64,000 bases of DNA from Lingula anatina. Taxonomy: Eukaryota > Animalia > Brachiopoda. A program made the translations under genes and the position numbers. The stretch covers positions 14,818,001-14,882,000 of the forward strand of contig CM120642.1 in assembly GCA_051362555.1 (NCBI GenBank), read 5' to 3'. Every line of letters starts with the position of its first letter. Positions within the stretch are counted from its first letter, which is position 1. Positions 1,100 to 32,005 of the stretch are shown in pieces. The notes beneath the pieces are model-generated. The model worked only from the letters and a program-made list of their open reading frames with translations, was not told the origin of the DNA and did not search any database.

Positions 1100-4000
1100 T
1101 TATTTTTTTGACACGGGTGTGCCAAACATGGCCTCTCCCAGGTCCTCGCTTATCTCGGCCAGCATTTTGGGGTCTTTGTAATAGGTCACAGCTTTGGCCA
1201 TGGCCCAGGCACGCTTGACTGGCTCCACACTTTTGAAAATCCCTGATCCCACGAAGACGCCGTCCACACCAAGTTGCATCAGTAGAGATACGTCGGCTGG
1301 AGTAGCTGTGTAAAATGAAATGAATATAAAATCATAACATAACTTGAAAGGAGGAGAAACAATGTCCTTTTTATTCTTCCGCCATTATAGTGTATTAATG
1401 CTATATACACTCTATACTTACAATTCTGAGGAACTGTCATTCTTTGGACTCGACCGAGTAATAAACAGCCCTATTTCTTTTCGTTTTAAAAAAAATTCAA
1501 GTACACTTCTCCATATCAGTGAATAAAATAACATAAAGCACTTATTATACTAAAAAAGTAAATCTAAAGAAAACAACAGTTTTTCTCACCGAGTCCTCCC
1601 GCTGCAAACTGGACTACTGGTAGACGACCGAGTTCTGCAGTTTGTTTCAGCAAGTCATAAGGAACACTCAACTCCTTGGCGTAACTGAACAGCTCTGGCG
1701 GGTCCAACGTCTGGACTTTACGGATCTGCTGCCGTATTATCCTTGCATGACGAACTGCTTGGCTAACATCACCTGAAACACAGACGTACCCATGCACTAA
1801 TCAACTACAAAGTGATATCCGATTATTTGAACAGTCTCAGATGGGAATTTAGGGGCTAAAGACTTTCTCATGAACGGTTGTTTTAATGCCTAGAAAAATT
1901 AATTAAGATCGGACTTTTTCCTAGTTTAGTGTACCTGTTCCTGCTTCGCCTTTAGTTCGTATCATCGCAGCTCCCTCTGCTATGCGTCTCAGCGCCTCCC
2001 CGAGGTCCCGTGCACCGCATACGAAGGGCACAGTGAACTGGTGCTTGTCCACGTGATGGTCGTCGTCCGCATTGGTTAAGACTGCATCAAAAGATAAAGA
2101 ATGAATTTTTTAAAAGAACCAGTACTAATATTTATTGTTGCAGTTATTACTTGTAAGTAACTAAAACACATTATGACAAGGTAAATGGTAACTAAAGGGT
2201 ATGCGTTAAACTGCACTTCAATAAATATTGATTCTTCTTTGGGACATAACGGCATATAAGTTATTATCATATTTTCCTTAAACTGATTTAACTTTAAAGA
2301 CTACTACATGTATTGCAACAATAAAAGCACCAAGACACCCATTTGTTAAAACTACAAACATGGACGATATGCGCTGGCAGATCCAGTAAAATATCATTGG
2401 AGGGGGGGGCGGATTGTGGCAGTTTGCATTATCAAGTATTTTAAAGCACGCTTTATTAGCCAGTCTTCATGTTGTGACATTTTCGCCATCTGGGTGGTGC
2501 AGGGGGGGGGGGGAGTGGGTCTGCCATTTTGATCTGTAAAAGGGGACAGTGGGTACGGGCTTCTTGTTTCCCCTGGATCTGCCTATTACATCATCAAGAG
2601 TGTAATACATTTTTGATATAATCTGTAGAGAATACCTACCCTCTGATTCATCAATCATATCCACTCCTAGAGCCTGGAGGATTTGAGCTTCAGCGAAATG
2701 TCCAATGCGACATTTGGCCATAACAGGTATCGTCACAGCGTCCAAGATCCCTTTTATCATCTAGAAAAGGTGAAATTTTACACAGATAAAAGGTATAAAG
2801 AGATTTTAAATTCGGTGTCCTTTGAACGTGCTGTCATCATAAAAGAAAGCATTAAGTCTTCTTACTTTAAAAACACCATACTTCAAATCTGCTCCACATT
2901 AACCGGTTAAAGTAATACCTCCATAAGTATACTTCTCTTTCTTGGTGATCAATCGATATGACACGCTCCGATTTATGTCCCTATTAAAATTAAGAATCAG
3001 ACCATAAACAGAGCAGTTCTTCTGTCATACTTTACCTTGGGATCAGACATTCTAGCCACGCCCCCCTGACTGCGGATATCTGCCGGTACCCTCTCCAGTG
3101 CCATCACTGCGCATGCCTGAAACACATAACGGTAAATATTTTACTTCTCTTTGGGATTTCTTTGTCTCTGTTGCAAGCCCTAAAATAGCATTTTAATAGG
3201 GCACATAAGGTCAATTGTTTTAGCACGTAACCAAAAATATTTGCAGCCCAATTATTATTATTATTCAGCTATAGGTCAACAGAGAAAAAGCGCTATGTTA
3301 GTGTACATGTATCAAAACAAACACATATGTTATAATATTGCGTCTTGGAAAGAAAGTGAGACTTAAAATCGTACCCCTGCTTCTTCTGCAACCCTGGCCT
3401 CCTCTGGAGTGGTGACGTCCATAATAATTCCTCCTTTAGCCATCTGTGCCAGGCCCGCTTTTACTTTGAATGTCCCCGTCTTGGGGACAGTCGGCCCCGT
3501 TAGGGACAGATTGCACACGCCTTCCGCAACGCCGTTCATTGCACCTAGAGAGAAAAGTTTAATCATGTGTGCTGATTCTTCAATCGTTCAGTTTATACAG
3601 GTATAACGTGTTTTAATCACCATCATCATAAGTTACGACGGAGAGCAAATGAAACAAACTCGGTTGATCCTTTTTGTTCTCTTTTGCGACAACAAAACCC
3701 AAATATGAAGGTGCGCTGTATCAGACCTGAAATAACTGCGGCAAACTTGCACAGATAACACAGAGGAATCACACAAAAAAAAAATCCATATTATACTGGT
3801 AGGATGGATAAAGGTATACTATACGAATTTGAAAACGTCCCAGATCTAGAGTCATACATGTATTTCAATCCAAAAAAGTTTTTTTCCCCCGAGTAGGATA
3901 CACTCATAAATTTGAAATAATATTTTTTGCAGAGAATAAGTATAATACAAGCATACTCCTACATAACATGTATGCACAGTGCCTGGTATGTTTAATCCCC

Positions 4001-4668
4001 CTATAATAATGTAAGCGCCTTAATACCTTAAAGCTGTAGATATGCAAATGAACAAGATATTGCCGTGTTGGATAACCACCTTCCATGTTTTTTTATGACA
4101 TATTCTCGACAGTCAGTAGCTGTGGGCCTGCTTCAACACCTGTTGATGCAGGTAGACAAAAGACATTTCCAACGGAAGAGAGTTTAACAACATAGGCGTG
4201 TTATTCTCTCTGTGTTGAATGTATGTATGCAAGTTGTTGTTAACATGTATGCATGTTTTATAACGCTAACAATCTGCCTGCTTATTCGTCTAAATGCCTT
4301 TGATAAATTGAAGCCATTTTCACGTATGTTGGGTTTTCACGTACTGCTGGCATAATGATGACTCATATGTTTTTGTCGATTGCATAGTGTATACTAAGTG
4401 TGCACTATCACAGTAATTTGTGTAAATGATATTTACGGTTTTTAAATGATAGGTAAGAATTTCCCATGACACTCGGGTTAAACGTGTGATCGTCACGCTC
4501 ATCAAGCACATAAATGCGCCCTATGTACAGGGTCTTTATAGGTATGCAATGAAAGACTTTACAGTCTGCACGTGCCATATTATTTGATCTCTTGACGATC
4601 ACCGCATACGTCTACATGATCAGATGCAGCAGACAGGTGAAGGAAACACACTTACCATTCATGTTCAT
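1100..4668 (-). CDS. PDX1: Pyridoxal 5'-phosphate synthase, synthase subunit (PDX1/SNZ/PdxS), ~306 aa, 7 coding exons
   Basis: Exons (minus): 4668-4656, 3544-3375, 3116-3036, 2760-2640, 2081-1935, 1772-1590, 1305-1100. All junctions are GT-AG and frame-consistent (921 nt). Translation contains family motifs [99 protein letters not shown] and [11 protein letters not shown]. Residues equivalent to catalytic Asp24, Lys81 and Lys149 (B. subtilis numbering) are present. The 13-nt first coding exon (MNMNG) is less certain than the in-frame ATG at 3539. Confidence 0.96.
2376..2583. mobile_element. Short non-autonomous element (MITE-like) in PDX1 intron
   Basis: Perfect 11-bp inverted termini GGCAGATCCAG (2376-2386) and CTGGATCTGCC (2573-2583) enclose G-tract-rich sequence. 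A related terminus CAGGGGCGGATCCAGG occurs at 35209-35224. Confidence 0.6.
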
Positions 4669-5825
4669 TGTGTCGGGAATGGAGCGTCTGTTGGCTGATG
4701 TAAGCGCCGTTCTTGAAAATATCGCAGTGCCTTCTTTGGGGAGACTTTCTTCTATCTTAGCTGTGTACTAAATGGCCACCGACGTAAGAAGTTATGAAAC
4801 CACAAAACAAACAGCGTGAAATGAAAAGCTGGGTCGACGGTGCAATTAAGTGCTGTTATTTCGTAAGCCTGTCTGTGAGGATGTTATTAATGCAGAGTTG
4901 CTATTCAATTTAGAATTACTCAAGTAGAAAGGCCTTAAATTTCGACAGACTTCATAACATTGTAATCGACGCAAATTTTCTGTACACAAGAGAAAGGTAG
5001 GTGAAAGTGGATAAAAATTATCACATAAAGAGTTGTTTAATTGAGCGGGTACAAAGGTATGACCCTTGGACGGCAACAATGAACCCCTGTGTGTGGTAAG
5101 CCATTTGTAAGCCCCAACTTCCCCTATTACCTTAAATTTATGATGAAATACACGTGTTTACTTTGGGAAACCAATCACGTTTTGGCCATATAGCTCAGTG
5201 TACTAATTATGAACTGCATAGCTATTACGATGAAATGAAATACGCTCACAATCAGTGTCACAAAACAATCAACAGCAAAGAGGGGCTCCCTGAATTAAGT
5301 TGTGGTTATATCCGCATTTAAGAGTAAGGAGTGAAGTCCCTGCTAAGGTAGGCCAAGGTTACTTTTATCTTTTAAACCACGGGACTCTAGATTTCTCCTC
5401 TAAAGTTTGTTTATTATAATATACGTTATGCAATGATGGAATGGAGCTTTGGGGTATATCACGATGTATCGGTGATGTATGCTGTCTCGTATAACAATCA
5501 CATACATACACTACTAAAAGTGTATTGATGGTTGGCAATTTCACCTATCCGTCGGAAGCGTGATATGGATATTTAGGCCTAACATGCCACAAATGTGACC
5601 GGTTGAAGTGTCCGAACTGTCACCTGTTGACCTACAAGGCTTAAAATTAGGGACTCAAGACTTTCCCAAATAGACCTATTGTATTTCAGCAGAAAAACCT
5701 TATGGGTCCTTTTAAACAAATAAAGATGTACTAGTATATTTGTATATATTTTAAGCACTATTAGCACCGTAGTGTTATTCTAATTGTTATTATCTTTAAT
5801 CATGATAGGAACCTTACTGGCAGCT
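4669..5825. promoter_or_regulatory. Shared bidirectional promoter and 5'UTR region of PDX1 and PDX2
   Basis: Lies between the divergent start codons (4668 minus, 5826 plus). Contains CCAAT at 5171-5175 and a likely non-coding PDX2 5' exon ending at AAG|GTAGG (5347/5348). Confidence 0.6.
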
Positions 5826-6939
5826 ATGCCAAATTCAGGGGAACTAAGGATCGGCATTTTAGGAATTCAAGGCGCTTTTCATGAACACAAAGTCGCCCTC
5901 CTGAAAGCCCATGAAGCCGCCAAGTCCGACCACCTCTCAGACTGGACACTGGACATCGTGGACGTACGATCACGGGAAGATGTCACTGACGATTTAGATG
6001 GACTAATACTGCCAGGAGGTGAAAGCACCACCATGAGTCTATTCCTGAAGAGAGAAGGCTTAGATACTGTTCTCCGAGAATGGATGGCGAAAAAGAGGCG
6101 AGTGACGTGGGGCACGTGCGCAGGTATGATTCTACTGGCGGAGAACATTGAGCATCAGAAAGAAGGAGGGCAATCTCAGGTATGGGAATTGTGTTAGGTG
6201 GGGAAAACAAAACCATGTACCCTCTTGAAATACGTTTATGCTACTTAATTTATCTAACGGGTATTGACTCTGGCAAGTTGTTAATTCACTTTGGGTAGCG
6301 CCCAGCAGTCATTATAAAGTTAGGTTGGTCGGAGTAACATATTTTTGAACTTAATAAATATTCAAATACTTAAAACATTATTCTAGCTTCTCCAAGATTG
6401 CAAGTTAAGGACCTAAGCAGGTCAATGATGTATGAGCGTTGTTCTTCTGAAATAAATTCTTTTATTTGACTTATAATGATCTTCATTTGGCAGATATATG
6501 TCACAATTATTTTGGTAGATCTTTATATTGAACAAAATTTGTTAGTTTAGCCAAACATTTATTTTTAAACTGATGTGATTTTTTCCAGCTGGGAGGCCTA
6601 CACGTGACAGTTTCACGGAACTATTTCGGTCGCCAGGTGGACAGTTTCGAGGCTGACGTCACTGTTTTGTCAAACACTTTAGCCGGTTCTTGTGAAGACG
6701 ACAAAACATGCAGGGGCGTCTTCATCCGGGCACCTGCCGTTATATCAGTGGATGACCCAAGGGTCAAGGTTATCGGTAGTTTGACCTTCACCGACAGAGA
6801 GCAGTCTGTCAGGTCTGTGATTGTCGCTGTGCAAGAGGAGAATACCCTTGCCACAGCATTTCACCCAGAACTTACAGACGACACCAGATGGCATAGACAT
6901 TTCTTAGAAATGGTCAAACGAAATAAAACTTCCATTTAA
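5826..6939 (+). CDS. PDX2: Pyridoxal 5'-phosphate synthase, glutaminase subunit (PDX2/SNO/PdxT), ~234 aa, 2 coding exons
   Basis: Exons 5826-6179 and 6589-6939, joined by CAG|GTATGG ... TTTTCCAG|CTG (phase 0). Motifs: IGILGIQGAFHEH, LILPGGESTT, WGTCAGMILL (nucleophile Cys), RNYFGRQVDSFE, GVFIRAP, ATAFHPELT (His-x-Glu of the class I glutamine amidotransferase triad). Confidence 0.96.
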
Positions 6940-7394: not shown

Positions 7395-7572
7395 CTTGAT
7401 TAAGACTCTATCGATTATTTAAACATTAAACATTCCCATGGAAAAAGATACAGAACTCACAAGAAAAAAACATGAAAAAAACGCTTGATTTAGACTCTAT
7501 TGATTTTTTAAACATTAAACATTCCCATGGAAAAAGATACAGAACTCACAAGAAAAAAACATGAAAAAAAAA
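7395..7572. repeat. Tandem direct duplication, ~89-bp unit x2
   Basis: AGACTCTAT...AAACATTAAACATTCCCATGGAAAAAGATACAGAACTCACAAGAAAAAAACATGAAAAAAA occurs at 7403 and again at 7492 with few mismatches. Confidence 0.9.
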
Positions 7573-8713: not shown

Positions 8714-10354
8714 TTACAGACCAGTTTCTTTCCTCTCGCCCGTTTCCTCCTTATCGTCATTCTTTATTTGTTCTTGTTCCGGTGTTTGGTCACTCGTTGC
8801 GTTTGGTTGAACGCTGCGACGTCGTTTTCGTAGGTACAGGTACGCTACCAGGCCACCTAAACCGGCGAGAAGCACGAGGAAGGAAGCGCCGACACTTGTA
8901 CCGATTATAATGCCTTTGTTTGAAGGTGATAACTTGAGGATGTTGCCTCGGCTGACGTCCGTCTCATTGGTTTCTCCGTTGGCATTCTCCGTTGTAGGAC
9001 TTGGTGTTATTGGTGCATTTTTGGATGGAATTGCGACAGTATGACTTGTTGTGGTCTCAGATGCGACTGAAACTGCGGACCCGGAAAATATCCCTATCTG
9101 TGTAGTAGTAGTTGGATCTGGACAAGCGGTTTTGTACTTCACGTACCAAGAGTTTGATGTGTTCAATGCATTGATTAGTGGGTCGGCTTGAACCTGACAT
9201 ATAATTTAAAAGAACATTTACACAATTCTTGATAATTTCGAAGTAATATAAATGTCTCTATCTCTAATTTAGAAAAACTCAAGTTTATTTGTTTCAGACA
9301 ATTTTATATTTCTCTGTAGTCGGGTTAGATTATATTACAAAAACGTACATTTTGCTCCGGGCATATTGCTATTACCCTCTATACCTTTTTGCATGTTACA
9401 TAGTGATATAATCGAGTAAAAGGTAGGCCTATTGTAAAGAAAATCCTGCTTACCTGCGCATAGGGCCTCAGACAAGTTCCCCGTCAAGTGGTACAGACCA
9501 GAAAAATTGTCAACAATGAAAGCATGGTTGGACACCGGCTCGCTGACTATTGCTTGCATGTCAATGAGCTGTGTCTTATTGCCCACACCTACGGCGTATA
9601 TTTCGATGCCCTGACTTTTTACTGGGAATGCTCTTTGAACAGTTAAGCAAAATCTGTCCATTATATCCGTCGTAATGATAACAGCTATTTTCCTGGTATT
9701 ATTACGACCCCCTCGTGAATCAGCAGGATTGAGAAAAACCGTTCTTGCAAGGTAAAGGGCTTTGTAAGTTTGACTCCCAAATAAAGAATTTTCGTGAATA
9801 GTCAGAGGCTTACTTAATGCGCTCATGACATCTGCTTCAGACCGTTTTGGATCTAGTGTTATAATTGCATTTACTGTTGGTATAAAAGATATAACTGCAA
9901 CACTATCTTTGCCCGGACGTACCTCGAAGGTATCATTGACCAAACTTTTCAGGAGATACTGAATCTTCGGGCCATCGTCAGGTTTTCCAGTAACATCCAA
10001 CAGGAATGCTATATCAGCGTTAGCGAGCTCTGAAATCACATGAAAGATACCTAAAACTACTTAACTACGTCATTTAGAAGAAATCCACAAGAATTGTAAG
10101 TGTATGCCTACTCATTACAGTATAACTGTCCAATTGTCCAATACGCTGTGTATGCAAGTTTTGTTTTTAATTTACTTTCATTTGATACACTATACATGTT
10201 ACAATATAATTAATTTTTTTCCACAGTGTGTTCGAGTAATGTTTATAATGTAAGTCAAGGCCTACTTACTGCATCCGATAGCCGTTCGGAGTAAAACGGG
10301 GAAAACTGCCACACCAATAATGAAATAAATCGCTCGAAGTTTCGTCTCTTCCAT
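8714..10354 (-). CDS. Single von Willebrand factor A (VWA) domain type I membrane protein, ~377 aa
   Basis: Exon 1, 10354-10270: signal peptide MEETKLRAIYFIIGVAVFPVLLRTAIG. Exon 2, 10029-9454: VWA (ADIAFLLD, VAVISF, TYKAL, KIAVIITTD, GIEIYAVGVG, IVSEP...HAF.VDNF). Exon 3, 9186-8714: Thr/Ser/Pro-rich stalk, TM segment IIIGTSVGASFLVLLAGLGGLVAYLYL, RKRRR stop-transfer, short acidic tail. The exon 3 acceptor is ambiguous (see findings). Confidence 0.82.
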
Positions 10355-12351
10355 GTTCGTGCGATCAGATGCACAAACGCGAAGCACAGTGTAGTGACCA
10401 ACTTGATAACCGGTAGTACTTTTTAACTCAACAAGTGCCATGAAAACAAGTGTCAATAAAATGTTATCTAATCACACAAGATTCAGGATGGTGAATTGAT
10501 TGCCTCCTTTCGATAAATAAGTTTTGATATTACTTACTGGCACACTGTTGATATCAAAATTTTCGAAATATGAAATAAAATGATTGAAGTATTGATTGAA
10601 GCGACACAGTCATAATCAAATGGCACACAATGTTTGGATCATTAATTTGGCCCTTCACTTTGTTATTACAGGTGGATTATCTGCGTGTCGATAACGCCTC
10701 ACTGGCAGAAAATAGTCGCATAGGACACTGACAGTCCCGTTGATGAATTCATAATTCCACTCAATTGAAAATTTTCATTACTGACGCCGTTTTTAATCTA
10801 GAAAATAACTTAGATTAAGATATGTCACTATGGTAGAAAAATCCTTCTTCAACGAAAAGTTAATGAAAAGGATAAAAGAAGAACATAATTATAGTTATCC
10901 CCATAATCCAGGAACATCAAATTGAAAAAATAAAACTGTTCTCATGATAAATTGGTTTATCTATTTCGATTTGTAACAATGGGTTCGAGCGTCCTTAGCA
11001 GATAACAATAATCCTAGTTAATACTCTGTTTAATTATTTTGTTCAATACGCGAAGTTTAATGAGTTTAATTATTGTGTCGCATACCAGTTTACGAGATTG
11101 AAGTCCAAAGTGTATTTATTCAACAAGTTGCTGTTGTCAGGAAGCATTATCAAAACGTGTATGTTTGAAATGAGTTTCTTTATAGCAACGTATCAATGGA
11201 TTAATTTCGCTAACAATTATTATGAATTAAGACAAATAAAATTAACTTCAGCCACCAACGGCGATAGAAACATGCAATTAGGACTACAGGTGTGTGAAAC
11301 AATGGGCGCTACTTTGTTGCCATTTCCACAACATGGAAACAAGATCGGTTGTTTGTAGACATTGTGAAGAAAGAAATCTACGATGTCAGTGTTCTCGGTA
11401 CAGCTGAAGTATATTATAGTGAGGCATGACATAAATGCGTAGATATATGTGTACCAGTGTCTTAGACCACAAGACACGAGCATACCAGGTTTTTCTACAT
11501 TCACGTTTTGTGTTGCCAAACGTTTGAGATATGCGCCCCCATTTTATCGCATTATGTTTGTCATTACGGTGGCTTTGCATCCTTGAACAAACGTAACTCG
11601 TAGTAGAAGCGGAACTTCATAGACTGGGATTTATGTATAATTCCCCCCCCCCCCCCCCCAAAGAAAAGAGAAAAATAACGAACAGATAATTCGATAATTG
11701 AGGAGACGTTCAATTGAGTCGGTGAACACAAGCGTGCATTGGTAAAAAAACGTCCGTTCTTTCACGCGATCTTTTTGCGAACATTCAACAAATTAAATTA
11801 TAAGTGGATGGAAAAAAACTATGCATATAACCACCAATATAAGTTATTAGAATGTATCGAATATTATCGACTAAACCTTTTTTTAATTTACATGTTATTG
11901 ACCCCTGGCAATTAAAACTCTTAGTTCCATAGCTTTCCAAACATCCATGTTGACTTAATTACAAATCTGATATCCCAAAAACTCAAGCTCATGCACCCCA
12001 AGGACGCCCTTCGACCCATCTACCACAGCCTCCACCAAAAAGATAAATACACTTTTAATCAGCGCTGGGCTACACTTCAACTTCAGAGGTCATACAAGGA
12101 CATTTTGAACATGCTCAATGTGCACGTGATTCAAGAAAGATGAAAGACCGAATTAAGTCATTAACACGTAATAGTTACTGTAACAGAAAACCTTAGGCAC
12201 CTATGGCCTGCCCAGTCGAGAAAATGTGCTATTTCACTGGGTGCTAATAAAAAAGTCATATTTTTGGGGGTTTGGGAGACATGTACGTTATTGACGGGGG
12301 TCAGAACAATCTCTACAACAAAAGAGAGTCAAATCTTCAAAGATATTGCAG

Positions 12352-14111: not shown

Positions 14112-15760
14112 TTACGCTTGTGGGTCCTGGTCCTCGTCATCCCCCTTCAAGCATTTCAATGCCAGCATTTTCAATTTTTTTACCTTTCCCATGATACTGC
14201 GCCCGTCTATGCCGTCCTCTGGCACACCGGTAGGCTTTGGTAGGTTTTCCAAACATCCCCTTACTCTTTCTTTGAGCTCATCTGGAATTTTGGCAACCAA
14301 GCATCGGAGCAGCCTCGCTTTTCCGTCATTGTTTGCTGGCTCACCGGTGGGCTCTGGTCCGTCAAAACATTCGCGAACTTTTGCCACAAGCTTTTTCAGC
14401 TTCATGAGCCTAATAAACAATAATAATAAAAAAATATTTATAATAGAATAATAGCATGTCTATAATATTGTACAACCCATTGTACAAAATAAAAATGTAT
14501 GACATGTAGTAACTATATTAGAGAAAATTCAGATGTTTGACATTACCATAATTAATTTACTTCACAGTATATATACAAAACGCACTATTTCATTCAAATG
14601 ACATTTTTTAATTACAAGTTCAATATAATATTCTACCTGTAGCTTCACGTTTACAGGGTATGCAGAAATTGTAGGTCCTGAATTTTGCAGCAACAACAAA
14701 AAATCGTACAATGGTTATATATTACCTAACCAATGGTCCTGGTCCTTCTCCCTCTCCACGCTTCGCTGGTGTATCCATCGCTTCTGGTTGTTGCGGGTCC
14801 TGTGCATCGTCATCTCCCTTCAAGCACTTCAAAACCATCATCTTGATTTTTCTGCCCTTTTCCATGATATCGCGCTTGTCTGTGCCGTCCTCTGGGTCAC
14901 CGGTAGGCCTTGGTAGGTTTTCCAAACATCCCCTTACTCTCTCTTTGAGCTCATCTGGAATACTGCCAGCCAAGCATCGGAGCAGCCTCGCTTTTCTGTC
15001 ATTGTTTGCTGGCTCACCGGTGGGCTCTGGTCGGTCCAAACAATCGCGAACTTTTGCCACAAGCTTTTTCAGCTTCATGAGCCTAATAAAAAATTAATAA
15101 TTAAAATAATAATAAAACAATAGTATGCCTATTATAATGTACATCCCATAGTACAAAATAGAAATGTGTGACATGTAGTAATTATATTAGAGAAAATTCA
15201 AATGTTTGACATTACTATAATTGATTTACTTCACAGAATAAAAAAAACGCACTATTTTATTCAAATGCAATTTTTCGTAATTTACAAGTTCAATATAATA
15301 CTAGACATGTAGCTTCACGTGTACAGGGTATGCAGAAATTGTGGGTCCTGAATTTTGCAGCAACAACAAAAAATCGTACAACGGTTATATATTACCTAAC
15401 CAATGGCCCTGGTCCTTCTCCCTCTCCACGCTTCGCTGGTGTATCCATCGCTTCTGGTTGTTGCGGGTCCTGTGCATCGTCACCTCCCTTCAAGCACTTG
15501 ATAAGCATTATCTTGATTATTCTGCCCTTTTCCCTGATGCCGCGCTTGTCTGGCAGACCGGTAGGCTTTGGTAGGTTTTCCAAACATTCTCCCACTTTCG
15601 CTTTGAGCTCGTCTGGAATTTTGCCAGCCAAGCATCCGAGCAGCCTCGCTTTTCCGTCAATGTTTGCTGGCTCACCGGTAGGCTCTGGTCGGTCCAAACA
15701 TTCGCCAACTTTTTCAAGCACTTTCAGCTTCAAGAGCCTAAAAAAATTAATAAAATGATA
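14112..15760. repeat. Tandem exon+intron duplication array, ~670-bp unit
   Basis: Introns 14410-14725 and 15083-15395 are near-identical, e.g. GACATGTAGTAA.TATATTAGAGAAAATTCA and CAGGGTATGCAGAAATTGT.GGTCCTGAATTTTGCAGCAACAACAAAAAATCGTACA. The three exons are highly similar at DNA level. Confidence 0.93.
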
Positions 15761-18679
15761 AAAAAAATAATAATAATAGAACGACAGTCTGTCTGTACGC
15801 GGCAAATATAGAACCTGGACTTAGAATTAAAACTATACAACGGTTACTACAAATTTTTATGACCACAGTGTTGTCACCTTCGTTAAAAAACGGGGAAGGA
15901 CATTTTGGAATATGAAAAACACCGTATAATACATGTACGTATAAATGGCATTCATGGAATAATGTGAATGAAACATGACTGATATTGTGACTCGTGACAG
16001 AAAATCAAAGAATTTTTTAACTTGTAAATTGAAAAATGATCGATTTCCGAGGAAACTCTGTAACTAATGTAGTAAGATTTTATCAAGAAAATTGGCATTA
16101 TTCACGACAAAAGCGAGAACCACAATTCGGTGCCAGCGTCTTGTGTAGGAGATACGAGACCCTTATTACGATGTTTCATTAAAAATGCATTTTTTTTTGC
16201 CTCTTTTCTGATAAAAACAGAGGTGAACTCTTCAAACAATTCCCGGTCACCAGATAGTGGTGCTTATTTTTGTGATTGAATATACATTAAATGGGACTGA
16301 AAAGTGTTCAGGTGAGGGTGATCTGTTTAAAAGCGATATTAGGGAACCATTCCCACAGATATTTGGATCGATCTAACTCCCTGGGGAGTCTCACTAAATT
16401 GCTATCAACTTTACCGGCTTAAATGTCTGTCACGCCTAGTAAAGCTGCCAGGGGGTAATTATCTTTACCCCTAGCCGATTCGGATAGCAAATTAAGTGAG
16501 ACTCCCCAGGAAGTTAGACAGATCGATCTAGGCATGGGAATCTAGTTTCCACCCTAAAAACGCTGCTGCTTCGTCAAAACGTTGAGTTAGCAAATGTATT
16601 TTTGATGCGCCATCACTATTTCATAACATGACTTTTGTTTGGCATTATTTTAGCAGATGAAGAAACAATTCTAACGTATCGATCTTCCTCAAGACATGCT
16701 TAATATAGATATACCCTATTACTAGTCAATCAGTGCTGTGTGGTTTTTACAAACCAGCAGCGTGATTATACAGACTTGACATTTAATATGGAATATTTCG
16801 GTTTCGAAGGTATGCCTAGGTGAAAATGCATTCTTTTTTTCACAAACTCCGATCTCATATAAGATATGTGATTGGAGAAGTGTGTAGTCAGGTGTCTCGC
16901 TACCAATTAACTGAATACCAGGTTTGTTGCGCTGCTGCATTATGTAATATGCAGTGATTTAATTGGGTAGTGCTCCTTTGGGCTGGTCAAAGCTTGGGTT
17001 TGGCAAAGCATGGTTCTTTCAAAAAAGTATCCATATGTCGGCAACTACTGCATAGAATAATTTAAAATTTTGCATGCAAGTGGTCTGGTTTGCTGTGTGT
17101 AAAATGAGCTATGCAGTGCTTTACAAATTTGTTTATATGTGGCAGAATGGCGCGAAAAAGACAGGCATTGCCAGACAGATAATTGTGCCAAACGAAACGG
17201 TCCGCACAGTTTTATAAAGTAATGCCCAGACTGATGTACCTACACAGAGGCCACACCCAATGTGTTGAAATCTTACCACCAGGGCACAGGACCCACTGTC
17301 TTTCGGGATATGCAGTTGCAACTAAACAAAAGCCACCCAGTCCGTTCAGAATGAGGGGTAAATTGCCACCAAAATGCACTTTTCAAGGCCCTTAGCGAAC
17401 ACCAAACTGGTTTTTGCAGGTAAGAATACCAGACGACCTCCAAGGAACCCACTGTAAACAGCAAAACATCGTTGTATGTTTCTTTAATGAATTGGGGACC
17501 TTGACTGTTTCTGGGTTGAACACTGAAATCTCGTGGCTTTCTGTATTGAGGTCAGATTCCACCTGTACCGCTCAACAGTCAAAACAGAGTTTACAGACAT
17601 CCAGAAGAGGCCAACGACGAAGCGTGTGCCGCATCTAAAGTGACTTAGGTCATTAACAGCGTCAGTATTTGGAGTGGAAAGCACATTGGTGCCAAAACAC
17701 CAATGGTAGTCATCGACGAAAACCTGAACCAGATCAAATAAAGAAATAATCTGGGAACCATTTGGCTATCATTTGATAGGGGGCAACTTAGGAACAATTT
17801 TAGGTTGCACGGTGAGATTGCCGGTTCTTACAGAGCACTTTTAAAAGCAGATTACTTACAGAACCAAGGGAATGAGCAGCTACCTTGGTCATCAAAATCA
17901 CCATATTTGAACCACATAGACAATATGTGGGTAGGCCATTACTCACCAAATCAATGGCCTACATGACCTACAACAAAACTGGACCAAATTGGACAGATTT
18001 TGACCGATGCCTGGAATGTTATTCCAGATTGAACTTTAAAAACCTATCCCAAGGAATCCGTTGCCACTTGAGAGCGCTGGTAGCAGCCAGAAGAGGTCAT
18101 GCGTAACAGCGGCCGTTACTGTGACTAGACACTGACATGAGGGTCCTTTCTGGCGCGTGTAACTCCTTTACAGACAATAATTTGGAAAATATGGAGGTCC
18201 AAAATATCTCTTTTAATGGTTGTCGTCTGACATAGAATAGGCAATGTGTTTTTGTTTGCTTCTCTGTCGAATTCCATTAATGAACTGATGTCACAATGAC
18301 ATCAAAGAGGTAATTTAAAGTTGTTAAAACACGATTTTAATCCTTATTTTAATTTATCAGTCAGCTAAATAGGAAAAAACTGATGAAAAATGATTTGGAA
18401 AAAAATATTCCATATTAAATGTCAAGTCTGTATATACCTGTCTTAGAATTTAAAATAATCAATATATCCCTTATCATTTTAAGAATAGGTCGTCAAAATT
18501 GCGTTTATGCCATCACTTGTCCGTCATGCATCAATGACACATCGTAATACTGAAGCGTGAAAGATATGTACGTACATGTAAGCAAAGATAAATATTAAGA
18601 AAAAAAGCACTTACATGGGCCCGCGGGCTGAGGCCAAACAGACGACAGCGGCCAAAACAACGAGTGTTGCGAACTTCAT
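14112..18679 (-). CDS. Secreted protein of unknown family with three tandem 4-Cys helical modules, ~353 aa, 4 coding exons
   Basis: Exon 1, 18679-18615: MKFATLVVLAAVVCLASARGP (classic signal peptide, AT|GTAAGT, phase 2). Phase-2 exons 15737-15396, 15082-14726 and 14409-14112 each encode one module (KV.ECL..PEPTGEP...KARLL.CL...IPDELK..V..CLENLP.PTG.P...K..K....KCLKG). Total 1062 nt, in frame. Confidence 0.88.
16350..16540. mobile_element. MITE/foldback element in intron 1 of the repeat-protein gene
   Basis: Inverted arms TCTAACTCCCTGGGGAGTCTCACTAAATTGCTATC (16372-16406) and GATAGCAAATTAAGTGAGACTCCCCAGGAAGTTAGA (16483-16518). The outer terminus GATCGATCTAGGCATGGGAA (16521-16540) recurs at 8300-8319. 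Confidence 0.75.
17222..18106 (+). mobile_element. Decayed Tc1/mariner transposase pseudogene (intronic, antisense to host gene)
   Basis: Fragments in shifting frames: MPRL at 17222; IEVRFHLYRS (~17545-17575; compare FSDESRF..Y..DG); DYLQNQGNEQLPWSSKSPYLNHIDNMW (~17850-17930; compare WPS.SPDLNPIEN.W); LRALVAARRGHA (compare C-terminal RAVI.ARGGHT). Multiple stops and frameshifts. TIRs not identified. Confidence 0.8.
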
Positions 18680-20593: not shown

Positions 20594-23500
20594 ATGAAAA
20601 CGAGGCCACTGTGCGGAAGAGAACTGAAACCGAGGCTGCAGTTTAACGGGATGGATGCAGACTTCACCCAGCTCCGAAGTACGCCCAGTAAAATTAAGAC
20701 CGAAAAGGAGCATATTGAAAATGGCCAGAGCGTCAAGACTGGTTGCAACATAATTAACATTAGATCAGTAATTAGAGAGTCAGTATTAGGTTGGTATATA
20801 CGCGCACAGCGCTCTTAATTCCCACTGGTTTCTTTCGCCGGCCAAAAATGGGGGGCCTTTCAAGTTCCAAAAGAAGTTCTTATTAGAAACACACAAGTGC
20901 CCACACTAACTGTTATGAGTATGAGCTGCTCTAAATTACACTTATAAAAAGCAGATACCTTTGTAGAATGAAGCAAGCCCATTTATGCAGTTAATAACAA
21001 GTCCTACAAGTTACTAAAAGTATCTTATGCATATATATTTGTTACATGCAAAGAGTAAAGATCAAAATTTTCTTTTCCATGTTGTTTTTAATTTGTTCCC
21101 CCTCCAAAACTGAGCAAAAACATGACTAAACCACAGGTTAGATTGCACTTCTTTTTCCATAGTACAAACATTCATTAGTTAACCAAGTGTTCTTGTAATA
21201 TATGGTCCCTGGCATGTGCTAGCCCTTATGAAAAAGTCCTACAGGAACCTATGGGACTTTTTCGTTAGGGCTGTTGTGCTATAACATCAAAATAGTGTAA
21301 GCACATCATATCAAAGACTTTATACAGGAGTGCAACAAATAAATTTTAATGTTATCTAGTCTAATGACTTAATGGTTTGGTAAACTAAGAATTATTCACA
21401 GGTCAGAGACTGTTTGTTCTGATATATTTTGTTTCATGGGTAAGTATCAAGATCTGTCAGAGCAGGGAAAATGGTCTCTACCAGTTACCAGTATGTTGCT
21501 TAAATAGAATTTATCGTGAAATCTTGATCCTCAAATGTTGAATTGTTGAACCTTCAGCTGGAACAGTGGTCTTGCTTACATACTTTAAAAAATTTCTTTT
21601 TTGCCAGTTTTGATTTAGATATTGGAACTTAAATACCTTTGGACTGCCCAAATAATTATATCAATCCTGCTTTATTACAGAGAGTCCCTTGATCTAAAAT
21701 TATGCCTAATAGTAATCCAAGTTGCATATGAAGGACTCCTGAATCATCCTAGCTCGTCTCTTGATTATTCTTATAAATGCAGTGTCTTTATTCATTTTAG
21801 GATATGTGTTCTGGAGCCTGTTCCAAGGATTGGGACCTATGATATGGTTTTATCCCCTGAATGAACTAGAAATCTCAGGATATGAAGTATTCTGCCTGTT
21901 GTGGCTAAGTCCAATTGTAACCTGTATTTCTCCAGTATTTCATCTCATTCAACACCCATGGGTGCTGGGCGGCCTACGTTTATTTATGGTCGGTTGCATT
22001 GCATCTTTCCAAGCACCAACAACATTACAGCGCCTGATACTTCTGGCCTTGGGAAATGGGGCAGCCATGTTGGTTTTGGTGGCCACAGTGTGGAAAGATT
22101 CTACATATCAGAGGTATTATTTTGGTGTTATTTCAGTTAATTCTCCTCGTTTATGTTTGTAAAATCCAAACACTCTCATTCAGTTTTTTTTTTCTTTTGA
22201 AAAATGAGGATTATATTTTGTATGTGTTTGTGAAATGTAAGCCTTTTTAGTAGGAAATTTGATTATAGCTGTGTATGTAGAAAGTTAATTTTTGGAAATG
22301 CAACTTAAAGCGTTATGAATTGATGATTTGATTTCTGGGTTGACTTTAAAAGACTATCCGTGTATACCCCAGGTGACTGTTTCTGCTCGTGAGATAACTA
22401 AATTTTAATATTATTATTATAATATTCCAAGCCTGGATATTACATTTCAGATACCTGACATTTTGGGGTCTTATGGTGGGCTTCTTTGCAGTTTTGGCAG
22501 GGAGGATATGGTTCACCTCTTTTATCCCAACATGGTGGGACAATCCAACCAATTCAGCAGTCCTTGCAGTAGGACTCATAGCTACAGTAGACAAAATAAT
22601 GTCTGGTATGTGAAGAAAAGGGAGATATTGCAGGGTGTTTGTGTAGAATCATCATGATACCAAAGTTATGAAATTGTAACTTCCAAAAATAAATTAATTG
22701 ACAAGTACTGTTTTTAGTTCAGTCCTTCACAATCAGTTTCCATGTATTTATATGGTGCTTAAAAGAAGAACAGTTGGAATCAAAAACTACTTGTCGATGA
22801 GATTGTAAATAGAAGTTTATATAAAATAATTATAAAACACAAGCTGAAATGTTTTCATACTGTTAGTTATGGCCAAGTTAGTTGCATAGGGTCCTTGTCC
22901 CTACACCACCTACTGGTCATGGAGTAACAATATCTCTAGATTCACATTAGTCTGATGAAGACCTATGGACAGGTTTGCTGTAAGGTAATTGTATGAAAAC
23001 ATTTCAGCTTGTGATTTATCATAATTATATAATTATGATATTATCCAACTACCAAGCTAATGGACATTTTTTGTTAAATAAAACTTATTTATAAAAATCC
23101 GGCACAGGCATAATTTATCCTGATATGCCAGTGATAATATTATTTGAGTCCTCTCAATAGTTATGATCAACAGTTTTTCCTCTGGTTTTCTATTTTCTTT
23201 AATTTCTTTTCACAACCAAGGTGATGACAGTCTGCCAGTCCAGAAAATCTCTTCCCCAAGGCCTTATTGGCTGTCCACTGGCGTAGGCTTTGGTAGCCTT
23301 CTCTATCTTACTCACTGGATATTTGGAGAAGTTTCCATAGCAACAAGATGGGTGGTGACTGGATACCCTGACCATGGCCCTCAGCCTAATCCCTGGGGGT
23401 AAGAGAGAGATGAGAGCTCCTCTTTTAGATTTTAAATGAATTTATGAATGAATAAAAATAATATACAGTACTAGCATTTGTAACTAGCAAAGTGCTATTA

Positions 23501-26500
23501 GGTTATATATAAATAGTAAAGACCTAGTTTTGTATGTAGTTCTTTTCTTCTCTTGAAGCAAATCTGAAAAGTTTTATGTGGCATATTTGATAGACAATAA
23601 ACTATTTTGTATTGATCTGTTAATATAGGAACAGTGTCTTTGTAACAATAAACCATGACCTTACAGATGGGATGTTTGTCCTAGATAATTTTAATCTTTG
23701 TGCTTTTTGTTATAAATATAAATAAATTAAGTGCTATAATTATTCTTGTTTACATCCTCAGAAGTGAAAATATCTCAATTTCAGGGCTACCATTCTTATT
23801 TCCCTAGCTTTTGGCATACTGGTATGCTGCAGGTTTTCTGCATCTAAAATTTGGTGGATTGATGGAGCTCTAAGCCTGGTGGGCCTGTACTATTTGCCCA
23901 CATGGCAAGGATTTGCATGTAAGTTGTGGCAGTCTGGGGCACATATGTACAGTATGCTGATAAATGGGTTCTTGCTCACACATTTTTGTTTTATCAACAT
24001 TACATTTTTAATAAAAAAAATTATTTAATTTGCAAAAAAAAAAAAAAAAAAAAGAACAGCATGTACTTCATGAAAAATAGAAAACAGAAATAACCAAAAA
24101 ATATGTGCTTGCACAAGATAAAGCAGTTTGTGTGTACTGTGCTAGATGGGAATGATGTATACAGTATGTGCTAGTGGAGGCAGTGTGTGTGCGTGCGTGT
24201 GATTCTCCAGCTAGTATACTTCCATTCTATTATTGTTCACAATATTGTTGCATTTATATTGATATCTGTGTAGATTCTATATTTTTACAGACTTAATGCA
24301 AAATGTACTTAATTCTTCAAATCTTGTAGGTGCTAACCTCCTGGCTATTTACACCATGTCCATCTGGCCAGAGATGATTGACCGACTAAGCAGGTGTCCA
24401 GCGGGACCTACACTGACCCTATCTGTAGTCACTTATCTGGTAGAGATCTTCTTTTCGGTGTGGACTGTGGCATACAACTTTGTCCCCGGAGGAGAGTTCA
24501 CTAGAGAACACACTGACTATCTTATTGGCTTCATGGTGGTATGCTTAGGCTTGGGACTCTTTACAAGTAAGTTGCAACCAATGACTGAATATTTAACTGG
24601 CAAAACATATAGGATGATGTACATATTCTTGTGATATACAAACGTGCTAATTCTGTGAATAAGCAATACTCCGAAGATGCTTAGTGAACTTGCTTTGACA
24701 ATGAGGTTTGTTTGCTTTGATTGAAGGAAATATCTCAGTTTTGTGTAAATATATGATTGATTTTCTGAGGATGTTATCAGGGAAAATGGGCCTAATATGT
24801 TTCTTTTTCCTGCAAAGGCTCAAGTGTAAAAGTCCCTGGCCACACAGCCTTCAGTTTGAAGAAGCCCAATGGCACAGTGAAGGGAGCTCTATTGTGTATG
24901 GTGTTACTGGGTCTGGGAGGATTTCTGTCAAGGCAGGACCCTAACAGATATAATCATCCAGTGAAGGTATCAATAACATGCTATAGAAATGGTCCACTGT
25001 GTTAAAAAGTCTCATTCACTTATAACTTTCTTTTTTTTTTTAAGTACGAGAAATTGTCAAAAAATGTACATGTTTTTGTATTGAGTTTTAAGCTTTTAAA
25101 AATGGATAATTTGTTTAGTCATATTTCCCTAATTTCACTGAATTTTGGTTCATATTCCCAGTATTCACCCAAGACATTCCGTGCCGCTATATGGACGTAC
25201 CACTTCGGATATGATAACAAAGGATGGCCAAGTTTGGAGAGGTCCTTTCAACTATTAAATGATACAGGTAAGGGGAAAAACTAAGTCAAGGATATGTGCA
25301 AAATGACAAGTAAGACCACTAAATGTAGATCCCGGACTGCACTGACTAACTTGGAGAGGTTCTTATGGTGGAGAGGTTCTTCTTATGGTAATATAATAAA
25401 GGTGATGAGGGAGTTGAATATTCATTTGGAGAATTTCCTCTGTTGTTGATGTTTTATGGTGAATTATAAGAGTTGTTAGATTTTATGTTCAGAAATGAGG
25501 AAAATGTAGGGTAATGAAAATTAACTAACATTTATTTAATCATGAATCTTCATTCTTCAACCCTGGAGCAGATGGGGAGAGGGGATCAAGTAACTGTGGT
25601 GCATTTATGAATGACTAACAATATTCAAAATCTCAGGTGCTGACTTCATTACTCTCCTGGAGAGTGATGCATCCAAGCCATTCCTGGGTAATAACGACCT
25701 TGGGATGTGGTTAGGGGAGAGGCTGGGCATGTATGTGGACTTTGGACCCGCTACAAAAGACCACACTTGGGGGTAAGAATTGGGTCATGTTTAAGTTAGA
25801 CCAGTGTTACAGTGTAGATTAAAAAATGTGGTGTGTAGGTCATTAGTTCAAGTAGCTGTATAAAATGGTGAGTGTTTGCTGTGTGAAGGGGACACTTTAC
25901 TTTTCCAGACTCATACATGATAAATTGTACAAGGGCTGAAATGCTGATGAAATTAGTTTTTGTAGTAACAGTATTACCCTTTTCTTATGAATAAAAACGA
26001 ACCGATGAATTTTTTTTACCTTCTTTCAACCCGGTTCAGAAACTTGAAAATAGTATTAAAACAGTTCTTACACTTCTATATAGGTCCTACTGTAGTTTTT
26101 CTCTTACTTGTGAATACATTTCCTGTGTTTGTGAATGTTTTGTCTGCCACTTTCTTTCATCCTGATATCATTTTTGTTTTACAGAAATCTTATCCTCTCC
26201 AAGTATCCCATTGTCAAGTCTAAACATCATCTGCTTCCTTCTCCACATGGTTAGTATTTGTATATGAATATGATGCTTTCATGTCAATAGTGTGTGCTGT
26301 TTATCATTGTAGTATACAGGTACTGTATTTCTAAACCTACATTGTGTATGTGTTTAAATTCATAATAAAAATATTCCATATAATCAGCATTTTTCTTTCT
26401 TCTTACAGGTGAGCTCGCTCCTGGCATTACAGCTACAGTGAACTATAGCGGTAGTCTAGTGGACTTTGTGGTCACACACATGGGCAATGACCGGGATGTA

Positions 26501-29020: not shown

Positions 29021-32005
29021 GCCAATACTTGGCATTTGAAGCAATATGAAAAGTATTTTCACAAAGATTATGGAGCACAAAGTTTATACTGCATTTATAC
29101 TGTTATAACAGTGTTTCTTTTGATATCAAAAGGTTTTACAAGTGTTCATAGTGCCATTACCTGAAAATGTTTCATAAAGTTAATATTGCATTTCTACTCT
29201 TATTGCAATATTTCTTTTGATATCAAAAGTTTTGCTAAGTGCATGTAGTGCCATAAGGTAATATTGTTTCAAGAATTTTGTTGGTTGCATCCATTTCTGA
29301 AATTTACGAACTCCCGCGATTATTTTAACAAAGATAAGGTTTAATTATGGTTTCTGCTTTTACAGCATCTCTTGTATAAAAATAACCTGCTAACCATAAC
29401 TAAATTATTTATTCAGAAACTGGAAAAAGTAACCATTGTTTATTATGTTATTTTATTGTACCACCAGCGTGGCAGCATTTTGCCTCTGGTTCACCAGTAT
29501 TTTATGATGTAAATCTGGTGTTTTTTTACCCTTTTTTCCACAAGATATTGCATTTTAGTTTTAATGTGCATATATTGTCATTTAAGAGTAGGTACTAAGA
29601 TAGTATGTTATGGTTGTGAAGAAATGACCAGAAAGTGTCTGTTAATTTTTTAACAAGTGAAATGTGTTAACTCGTTGGTGTTTGGTGTTTTATGTATGCA
29701 GTGCCATACTCTTTAATTAAGCAAATATTAGATTATTTACTGTAACATTTTGCTTTTGTCTTCCATGTTATTTTAACTTGTTTGTTTGTCTGAGTATTTA
29801 TATAGTTGCAAGCAACTTTGGAAACTTAATGAGAGTATGTACCAAAATTAATAAAATTTTAACGATTTCTATTTTTTTTAACATGTATAAAATGTTTCAT
29901 TTACCAGTTGCAATACGTAGAGCACATTCCAAAATAACAATAATAATAAATAAATAAGTGCATGTGTCTAGTTAACAGAGGAACATCAGCATCTTAAAGA
30001 AATGAAAGTTCAAAGGTTATAGGTACAATAGATCCAGTAGAAGACGGCTCTTTCATCGTTCCAGCGTATTGACAGATGTTGGATTGGTATTGCTATACGT
30101 GTAAAAACACTCATTTTGAAATGAATAAAGTTATTCTTAATGCTGCCGATATGTTTTGGCCATTAATGTGATTAGGGTGCACTAGCGTCACGTCTCCCGT
30201 TTGTGTCGCACCACTTACGTCATAAAACGTCATAGACAAAACTTCGGACGTCAGACATCACTACCCAGCTGCCAGTCGTTATTCCAAACAACAGGTAATA
30301 GTTATGCTCTCTTTTTCCGCTAAAACTTGATTGTGTAATTTCATTATTTTAAAAATCACTATATCTATCCATTGATCAAGAAGGATACTGTGAAAATTGG
30401 TCGGTAAATTTTGCCCTTTTCAGTTTTTCTCCCTACCAAGTCAAAAAGTCTTCTACTCCATCGCCCGTGTCCTGGTATTCCATTTTTAATTCAGTAATTT
30501 TGATTATAGTTATCTAGTTGTTTGGACCACCATGTCTTCCTGAACATTTCAGAAAAAAAATCGACATCAGACAAAAGGGTTTAATCGTTTTTAAGGTTTG
30601 AGTTGGAGAGGATGCACCAAGTAAGAATTTAAGAAATGCAGACATAAAGTATGGCTTTGAGCCCTTTAAACAACCACATTTTGAACTATTTCTAATTTGA
30701 ACTATTTCTAAGTGTTTCTGCTTTTATTTTCATTCGTCTTTGCGAATGTGAAGCAGGGTTATGCTTAGACAAAGGGGGAAAAGCTGTAATGAATAAAAAG
30801 ACATCTTTTAATGTGGGAACAAAGAACGCAGAATAACGCATTTAATATTACCCATAAGAATGTTCATGCTTCCAAGGGTTTCTATTCACTAGCGTTTTAA
30901 TGATAATTATCATTTACTTTAGAATATGGAAACAGCATTATTTATTAAACTGCTACGCTTCGCTCTTGTCACAAGAGCACCATCAGGCTGAATGTCCACT
31001 GATCGTTAGGTGTTGGTAGACTTGTGAACGATTCTCACGAGGGGTGCATGTAGTAATTGGAGGAATGACCAGGACCGAGCATTTAAGACGTGAAATGTTT
31101 TTGAAATTAGAAAAAAAATCAATTTTATCAATTCTACTAAAGACTATAAACATATTGGTTGTTCACAGTAAATGCCTTCTATTTTTTCTTTCCCTTTCCC
31201 TCTTTTTTTCTGTTTTCCCATTCTACTTCAACCTGAAATTTAAATAAGAAGTTCGTCATTCGTATCTGCACACAGATTAGTAACCGTCCAGCAAACTTTC
31301 AAAAATATCAAAATTATTTTTTAAACACGAGGACAGTTTCCATACTTCAACATTACTATATAGAAAAAGAAAAAGAAAGACCCCCCCCCCCCCCCCCCCA
31401 TGATATATATATACTCAAAGCAAATGTATACAACATCAGCACAGACAGTACATTTTTCCTGTAAAAACGCTGGCTGGCATAAAAACGTGAAAATGTCTTC
31501 TTTAAAAAGATGAATGGGCACAATTTCCGTATTTAGGTTTGTTTTTCTTCGGCTTGCCAATAAAGTGTATACAATTCACAGTAAATGTTAAGATCCGATA
31601 TACACGTTCGATACCGTAGATATCATTGCCAGTTTTTCTTGCCCGTTCAAAACTTAAAGAACCCACTTCCAGCAATTTCCGGCAATGTCCGGCTTCCTTT
31701 CGTACAATTACGGGCCATAAATACACAAACAATATCGACCCAAACATTAAGCTACCTTAATAACATCAATAAGTTTACCTTTCCATTGTCATGAATGGAG
31801 CATTGATTTAAGAGGTCGAATCGATAAAACCAAATAATCTATTGACGCTGTGTGGACGGGCTTTGTGATGTGTATACCGGTCCTGGCAACTCGACGCCGC
31901 TTGCTTAACTACCAAACATAAACACGAACTTTGTTCCTGTGTATTGAGTCGCACCAATCAGAATAAACTGAACTGATTGAAATAGCAGCACACTAGTAGT
32001 TTAAC

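What the first reader, a model, noticed from the sequence alone, without database searches (positions are those of the whole stretch)
4656..5826. Head-to-head arrangement of PDX1/PDX2 mirrors the fungal SNZ-SNO divergent cluster
Seen: the start codons are 1157 nt apart on opposite strands, and the probable first exons (PDX1 ending 4656; PDX2 5'UTR exon ending 5347) bracket roughly 0.5 kb of shared promoter. Established: yeast SNZ/SNO pairs are divergently transcribed and bacterial pdxS-pdxT form an operon, and the enzyme needs both subunits. Inference: this is a two-gene metabolic cluster in an animal, either very old conserved microsynteny or co-transfer as a unit.
Basis: partly seen in the sequence, partly recalled or inferred. 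Interest (0 to 1): 0.72.

Follow-up and report, generated by a model that had tools for sequence, protein, structure and literature searches.

The report
Ancient back-to-back vitamin B6 gene pair
In this brachiopod the two genes predicted to make vitamin B6 sit back to back and are both expressed; they are also neighbours in corals, a worm and most molluscs checked, so the pairing is likely inherited from early animals, and it was already on record for fungi, a slime mould and a sea squirt.

Summary
PDX1 (minus strand, 7 coding exons, 306 aa) and PDX2 (plus, 2 coding exons, 234 aa) are intact, spliced, expressed and 1157 nt apart ATG to ATG. The window is Lingula-like (PDX2 95% identical to L. 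anatina). The pair is old, not recently transferred. It is adjacent or near by accession in 15 of 25 animal species and head-to-head in 9 of 9 cnidarian-like contigs (several near-duplicates). Five of 5 core PDX1 introns and the PDX2 intron are shared with a cnidarian-like locus, and both proteins nest among animal orthologues. Linkage is broken in 5 coleoid cephalopods and one freshwater mussel, so it is dispensable. The tidy 0.5-kb promoter is only partly right. RNA confirms the 5347 leader, but PDX2 also splices from 4996 and from 4699, inside PDX1 exon 1, and an annotated Lingula isoform uses 4541, in PDX1 intron 1. The 5' ends therefore overlap. The divergent pair is already published for fungi, Dictyostelium and Ciona (2010 supplement) and, from recall, a sponge (2001). 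It is a new member of a known kind; the breadth and the cephalopod break were not found in print. Interest 0.35.

The parts
1100..1305 (-). PDX1 coding exon 7, with stop codon at 1100-1102; 3' UTR reads run to about 870
1590..1772 (-). PDX1 coding exon 6
   Evidence: RNA joints; SOR_SNZ
1935..2081 (-). PDX1 coding exon 5 (holds K172, second catalytic lysine by homology)
2640..2760 (-). PDX1 coding exon 4 (holds K104, first catalytic lysine by homology)
3036..3116 (-). PDX1 coding exon 3
3375..3544 (-). PDX1 coding exon 2 (holds D47)
4656..4820 (-). PDX1 exon 1: ATG at 4668, 13 coding nt, 5' UTR; most reads end by about 4770-4820, a few reach about 5000 (read ends, not mapped start sites)
4514..4541 (+). 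Candidate PDX2 alternative first coding exon inside PDX1 intron 1, donor 4541; joined to 5809 it gives the N-terminus of Lingula anatina RefSeq PDX2 isoform X2 (P0286). No RNA joint seen here; plus-strand depth about 1 in X4 and X6
4683..4699 (+). 3' end of a PDX2 leader exon lying antisense inside PDX1 exon 1; donor 4699 spliced to 5809 (start of exon unknown)
   Evidence: 17-nt loose end in 3 X4 reads, carrying the X4 allele at 4693 and ending at a GTAAG donor
4916..4996 (+). PDX2 leader exon with donor 4996 (start approximate)
   Evidence: joint in X6 (3 reads) and X5 (1 read)
5270..5347 (+).
   Evidence: joint in X4 (4 reads) and X2 (2 reads)
4820..5270 (.). Gap between the main PDX1 5' end and the 5347 leader; likely shared regulatory region, crossed by other PDX2 leaders; no CpG or GC peak
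   Evidence: function inferred
5809..6179 (+). PDX2 common exon: acceptor 5809, ATG 5826, catalytic C98
6589..6939 (+). PDX2 last coding exon (H210, E212; stop 6937-6939)

Best explanation
This is an intact, expressed, head-to-head PDX1/PDX2 pair predicted to make vitamin B6 (PLP), likely inherited as a linked pair from at least the cnidarian-bilaterian ancestor and likely held together by a shared upstream region. Shown: gene structure, splicing, opposite orientation, several PDX2 leaders of which at least one overlaps PDX1 exon 1, adjacency in many other animals, shared introns. [quoted passage not shown]
For: Open frames and family matches; catalytic motifs present and close matches of the homologues P0121 and P0286 to solved PdxS/PdxT structures. 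RNA joints. Accession or locus-tag adjacency in 15 of 25 species: 11 consecutive or nearly so, 3 within five numbers, 1 on a shared 84-kb contig. Head-to-head in 9 of 9 cnidarian-like metagenome contigs, with a predicted ATG gap of 369-455 nt in the five measured. Introns: 5 of 5 core PDX1 introns same place and phase in L002; PDX2 intron same in L002, L003, L010, L012 and bivalve-like L006, L011, L013. Trees: window PDX2 sister to Lingula (100) within a clade holding all named animals (SH-aLRT 93); PDX1 within an anthozoan-plus-mollusc group (92). Depth of the two genes ranks alike over 6 runs (rho 0.89; weak). Conserved animal pairs are typically 5'-5' and co-expressed (PMC3514665, passages).
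Against: 6 of 25 species have the genes on different contigs and 4 more are unresolved (same chromosome, distant or unknown numbers). Accession order shows neither orientation nor distance, so orientation is read only in this window and in cnidarian-like contigs; no mollusc or annelid orientation was read. The co-expression figure rests on 6 runs from 3 studies, 6-25% of each run, low counts and no control gene; the PDX1:PDX2 ratio ranges from about 5.6 (X4) to about 1 (X7), and X1 and X2 each show only one gene in the bins used. Several PDX2 leaders point to more than one start site rather than one promoter. No start-site mapping, reporter or enzyme assay exists. Both trees are quick trees with thin outgroups (no named sponge, choanoflagellate, ascomycete or amoebozoan).
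Confidence: 0.72

Rival explanations
1. The pair is inherited but kept by inertia and physical entanglement (short gap, overlapping first exons, slowly rearranging genomes), not by selection for co-regulation.
For: Linkage is lost in 5 of 5 coleoid cephalopods examined and in Potamilus while both genes survive. Subunit RNA ratio varies several-fold between runs. Overlap of PDX2 leaders with PDX1 exon 1 would by itself make a clean break unlikely.
Against: The same divergent pair recurs in fungi, Dictyostelium and Ciona. The coral intergenic stretch is conserved at 69-83% between non-duplicate contigs, although how far apart those corals are is not known. Rank correlation of expression is positive.
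Confidence: 0.2
2. The animal pair only mirrors the fungal one: the head-to-head layout arose separately in animals, fungi and amoebozoans, or after an old pre-animal gene transfer (compatible with the best explanation for animals alone).
For: The nearest non-animal PDX2 hits were Chloroflexi-like bacteria and a chytrid, outside the animal clade. The 2010 table lists the pair for two ascomycete groups only, not for basidiomycetes, chytrids or Taphrinomycotina.
Against: Identical orientation in three lineages is simpler as one origin; bacterial pdxS-pdxT is co-directional (recalled), so a unit transfer would not give a divergent pair.
Confidence: 0.3
3. Recent horizontal co-transfer of both genes into the brachiopod lineage, or contamination.
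For: Bacterial pdxS-pdxT are linked, and transfer into a plant-parasitic nematode is reported (recalled, not read).
Against: Seven spliced coding introns, six of them at positions shared with cnidarian-like loci; animal placement in both trees; animal neighbours (VWA, PGAP2IP); expression in polyA and oligo-dT libraries.
Confidence: 0.02

Closest known systems
Divergent SNZ1-SNO1 pair of Davila Lopez et al. 2010 (PMC2871058, Table 1 and supplementary file 4): 14 pairs in 12 species, ascomycetes plus 'Cioint' and 'Dicdis' (read as Ciona intestinalis and Dictyostelium discoideum)
   Same: Same two families, divergent orientation, neighbouring genes; already includes an animal.
   Different: No cnidarian, lophotrochozoan or brachiopod among the listed species; the text names only fungi; no transcript structure.
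Sponge Suberites domuncula SNZ/SNO (Seack et al. 2001, PMID 11470156; title seen in reference lists only; head-to-head layout and bidirectional promoter are recalled)
   Same: An animal SNZ/SNO pair; databases name animal PDX1 'SNZERR' after it.
   Different: Different phylum; the promoter was assayed there and not here; overlapping leaders not known to me from that work.
Saccharomyces SNZ1-3/SNO1-3 pairs and the Pdx1/Pdx2 (PdxS/PdxT) PLP synthase, Pfam PF01680 and PF01174
   Same: Family membership, catalytic residues, pairing of each SNZ with an SNO (PMC6385983).
   Different: Single pair in this window, intron-rich, animal-specific sequence motifs.
Hspd1-Hspe1 and other conserved 5'-5' animal microsyntenic pairs (Irimia et al. 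2012, PMC3514665)
   Same: Two subunits of one complex kept head to head over very long times.
   Different: PDX1/PDX2 are absent from humans and most model animals; the main text of that survey does not mention the pair (supplements not searched).

Membership tests
Pdx1/SNZ/PdxS synthase subunit | SOR_SNZ (PF01680) domain across the protein | tested here: met
   5 exon pieces cover profile positions 2-207 of 207, each above the cut-off
Pdx1/SNZ/PdxS synthase subunit | Catalytic Asp and two Lys (S. aureus K82, K150 seen in PMC11237949; B. subtilis D24/K81/K149 recalled) | tested here: met
   D47, K104 and K172 in conserved motifs; the mapping is by motif and through homologue P0121
Pdx2/SNO/PdxT glutaminase subunit | SNO (PF01174) domain and Cys-His-Glu triad (B. 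subtilis H170 seen in PMC11237949; C79, E172 recalled) | tested here: met
   Both exons match SNO; C98, H210 and E212 present
PLP synthase complex | Forms a Pdx1-Pdx2 complex and makes PLP | not testable with these tools
   Activity needs an assay; no complex prediction was run
SNZ-SNO divergent gene pair | Adjacent, opposite strands, 5' ends facing, no gene between | tested here: met
SNZ-SNO divergent gene pair | Common descent of the linkage with the fungal pair | tested here: inconclusive
   Animal-wide descent supported; no named ascomycete, amoebozoan or unicellular holozoan sequence or locus was available to test the deeper link
Bidirectional promoter | Start sites on opposite strands under 1 kb apart | tested here: met
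   About 0.45-0.5 kb for the 5347 leader, overlapping for others; from RNA-seq read ends, not CAGE
Bidirectional promoter | Co-expression of the two genes | tested here: inconclusive
   rho 0.89 over 6 runs, confounded by study, no control gene
Bidirectional promoter | One element drives both directions in a reporter | not testable with these tools
   bench test
Horizontally co-transferred cluster | Nests among donor (non-animal) sequences, patchy in relatives, intron-poor or with lineage-specific introns | tested here: not met

The most novel reading that the evidence does not exclude
PDX1-PDX2 is one unbroken head-to-head linkage from the common ancestor of animals, fungi and amoebozoans, among the oldest gene pairs known, still used by most marine invertebrates to make their own vitamin B6; and in Lingula the PDX2 leaders that start inside PDX1 act as an antisense or interference switch that sets how much glutaminase accompanies the synthase, for instance according to available ammonia.
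Probability: 0.15. Interest if true: 0.62.

Novelty: new member of a known kind. Interest (0 to 1): 0.35.

Why it matters
Reviews still state that animals cannot make vitamin B6, or only some sponges can (PMC7954711), or that most lack the genes (PMC6071262). The hits here show both subunits in anthozoans, a jellyfish, a brachiopod, an annelid and chitons, gastropods, bivalves and cephalopods, mostly as a linked pair. That bears on host-symbiont vitamin budgets and on feed requirements. Lineages with the pair linked and unlinked (coleoids, a unionid mussel) give a natural test of whether head-to-head linkage is kept for co-regulation. The arrangement itself is not new.

Tried and rejected
No whole genome is held for this window, so copy number and other B6 genes elsewhere in the genome are unchecked. 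No indexed RNA holder was listed; raw-read runs of the same species label were laid instead: 6 of the 9 listed. The X7 leader joined to 5809 (5 reads) has no match in the window within 8 mismatches and stays unexplained; X7 reads are often only 90-95% alike. A PDX1-like hit downstream of PDX2 in L003 matches only the N-terminal extension of one Nematostella isoform and was rejected. A short PDX1-like match upstream of PDX2 in bivalve-like L013 lacks splice sites and was rejected; L001, L006, L011 and L013 (4 of 13 loci) are uninformative on orientation. Plus-strand reads at 3809-3842 are a short repeat match, not an exon. No DNA similarity was found between four coral intergenic regions and the window's. 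No GC or CpG peak over the gap. The careful PDX2 tree did not finish; quick trees are reported. No structure or complex prediction was run, since solved homologues exist. Earlier scan findings: none by words or place; sequence look-alikes were prokaryotic and unrelated to this question. Literature: 9 searches showed no paper surveying the pair across cnidarians and lophotrochozoans; the library lacks most subscription papers, and I recall but could not read Tanaka 2005, Craig 2008 and Helliwell 2013, which may already cover animal distribution.

Full report
Observation. PDX1 starts at 4668 on the minus strand, PDX2 at 5826 on the plus strand, 1157 nt apart. The PDX1 model (4668-4656, 3544-3375, 3116-3036, 2760-2640, 2081-1935, 1772-1590, 1305-1100) has six GT-AG introns and reads open for 306 aa; PDX2 (5826-6179, 6589-6939) reads open for 234 aa. 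Five of six PDX1 exon pieces scanned match SOR_SNZ and both PDX2 exons match SNO. The catalytic motifs are intact: D47, K104, K172 and C98, H210, E212 (reference numbering partly from PMC11237949 passages, partly recalled). PDX2 exon 1 is 93% identical to Lingula anatina PDX2 and the whole protein 95% over 228 columns, so the window is from a Lingula-like brachiopod.

Transcripts. Raw reads from 6 of 9 listed runs were laid (6-25% of each run). All six PDX1 introns and the PDX2 coding intron are joined. PDX1 exon 1 depth in X4 falls from 30 at 4693 to 21 at 4739, 10 at 4761 and 1 at 4823. It also receives a donor at 4996 (3 reads in X6, 1 in X5) and one at 4699: three X4 reads carry a 17-nt loose end that matches 4683-4699, bears the X4 allele at 4693 and stops at a GTAAG. 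That exon lies antisense inside PDX1 exon 1. The RefSeq Lingula isoform X2 (P0286) begins with a stretch that the window encodes at 4514-4541, in PDX1 intron 1, in frame when spliced to 5809; I saw no joint for it, only plus-strand depth of about 1. Up to about 6% of reads in PDX1 exons fall on the wrong strand, so unspliced plus-strand depth over exon 1 is weak evidence, but the spliced reads are not leakage. Counts are small, two joints are flagged 'between: not known', and read ends are not start sites. Normalised depths of the two genes rank alike over six runs (rho 0.89), but runs come from three studies, there is no control gene, and the ratio varies several-fold.

Conservation of the linkage. 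Twenty-five animal species had both subunits named; species with one subunit listed were not counted. Consecutive or nearly consecutive identifiers (11): Desmophyllum, Nematostella, Sanderia, Owenia, Lottia, Patella, Gigantopelta, Haliotis rufescens, Nucella, Mytilus coruscus, M. galloprovincialis. Within five numbers on a contig of the same length (3): Pomacea, Littorina, M. californianus. Same 83,982-bp contig (1): Saccostrea cucullata. Same chromosome but unresolved (4): Babylonia, Liolophura, Pinctada, M. trossulus. Different contigs (6): Octopus bimaculoides, O. vulgaris, O. sinensis, Argonauta, Acanthosepion, Potamilus. 'Same contig' is inferred from equal contig length, unlisted paralogues could change single rows, and accession order gives no orientation.

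Orientation elsewhere. An animal-biased PDX2 motif found 13 metagenome loci. Nine are cnidarian-like by best hit. In five, PDX1 exons lie upstream on the opposite strand; in the other four the short PDX1 first exon is found in the same position. Predicted ATG gaps are 369-455 nt in the five measured. These loci are not independent (L004 and L007 are 99% alike). The remaining four loci say nothing on orientation.

Origin. All five core PDX1 introns have the same position and phase in L002, and the PDX2 intron is shared with four cnidarian-like and three bivalve-like loci. In quick trees, window PDX2 is sister to Lingula inside a clade with all named animals (SH-aLRT 93; molluscs 99), and PDX1 falls with anthozoans and molluscs (92) apart from the named bacteria and a dinoflagellate (rows were chosen from the hit lists, and no named sponge, choanoflagellate, ascomycete or amoebozoan was available). 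Recent transfer is rejected. Descent from at least the cnidarian-bilaterian ancestor is well supported. Continuity with the fungal pair is untested.

Mechanism. By family, PDX2 is the glutaminase and PDX1 the synthase ring that makes PLP from ribose-5-phosphate, glyceraldehyde-3-phosphate and ammonia (PMC6385983 and PMC11237949, passages). The most likely reason for the lasting linkage is a shared upstream region firing both ways, as for other conserved 5'-5' pairs (PMC3514665, passages), reinforced here by overlapping first exons. This step is inferred. The split in coleoids and Potamilus shows that it can be replaced.

What is known. Davila Lopez et al. 2010 (PMC2871058; passages, first part of section 8 and rows of supplementary file 4) rank SNZ1-SNO1 fifth among conserved eukaryotic gene pairs, divergent in 12 species including 'Cioint' and 'Dicdis'. 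Seack et al. 2001 described SNZ and SNO with their promoter in a sponge; I saw only the title, and the head-to-head detail is recalled. PMC7954711 and PMC6071262 (passages) treat animals as unable or mostly unable to make B6. PMC6040629 and PMC3514665 do not mention the genes in their main text; their supplements were not searched and may bear on novelty. Nine searches showed no survey of the pair in cnidarians or lophotrochozoans.

Verdict. Real, correctly described, a new member of a known kind. The additions are the breadth of conservation, the break in coleoid cephalopods and the overlapping PDX2 leaders. Interest 0.35.

Noticed in passing
window 14112-15820, minus strand: Three related tandem frames of about 115-140 aa with a Cys-containing helical-looking unit and a Pro/Gly-rich tail; no Pfam match. 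Possibly repeated exons of a brachiopod-specific secreted or shell protein.
   Followed up: partly
window 8714-10400, minus strand: VWA-domain gene with a Thr/Pro-rich stalk and a predicted membrane segment, convergent with PDX2.
   Followed up: partly
window 21743-24634, plus strand: Exons matching PGAP2IP transmembrane domains.
   Followed up: partly
window 47581-49359, plus strand: 592-aa Ser/Arg-rich open frame with no convincing Pfam match.
   Followed up: partly
window 5809 (run X7): Five reads carry an upstream leader that is not in the window within 8 mismatches; X7 reads are often only 90-95% alike, suggesting a distant population or cryptic species with another first exon.
   Followed up: partly
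window, whole pair: RNA runs under one species label differ from the window at several per cent of sites.
   Followed up: no
L001:2134-2813: A divergent animal-motif PDX2 whose frame shifts between the two conserved motifs and which has an in-frame extra stretch where others have the intron; no PDX1 found in 1.6 kb upstream.
   Followed up: partly
proteins P0243, P0244, P0365, P0366: Mytilus coruscus has two PDX1-PDX2 accession pairs on one contig: a duplicated pair or an assembly duplicate.
   Followed up: no
proteins P0134, P0373: Gastropod PDX1 entries of 980 and 1446 aa (Batillaria, Littorina); probably gene models merged with a neighbour.
   Followed up: no
L003, L004, L005, L008, L010 intergenic regions: The coral PDX1-PDX2 intergenic stretch aligns end to end at 69-83% between contigs, a handle for finding promoter elements.
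   Followed up: partly
window 7395-7570 and 29079-29254: Two-copy tandem repeats of 89 and 97 bp.
   Followed up: no
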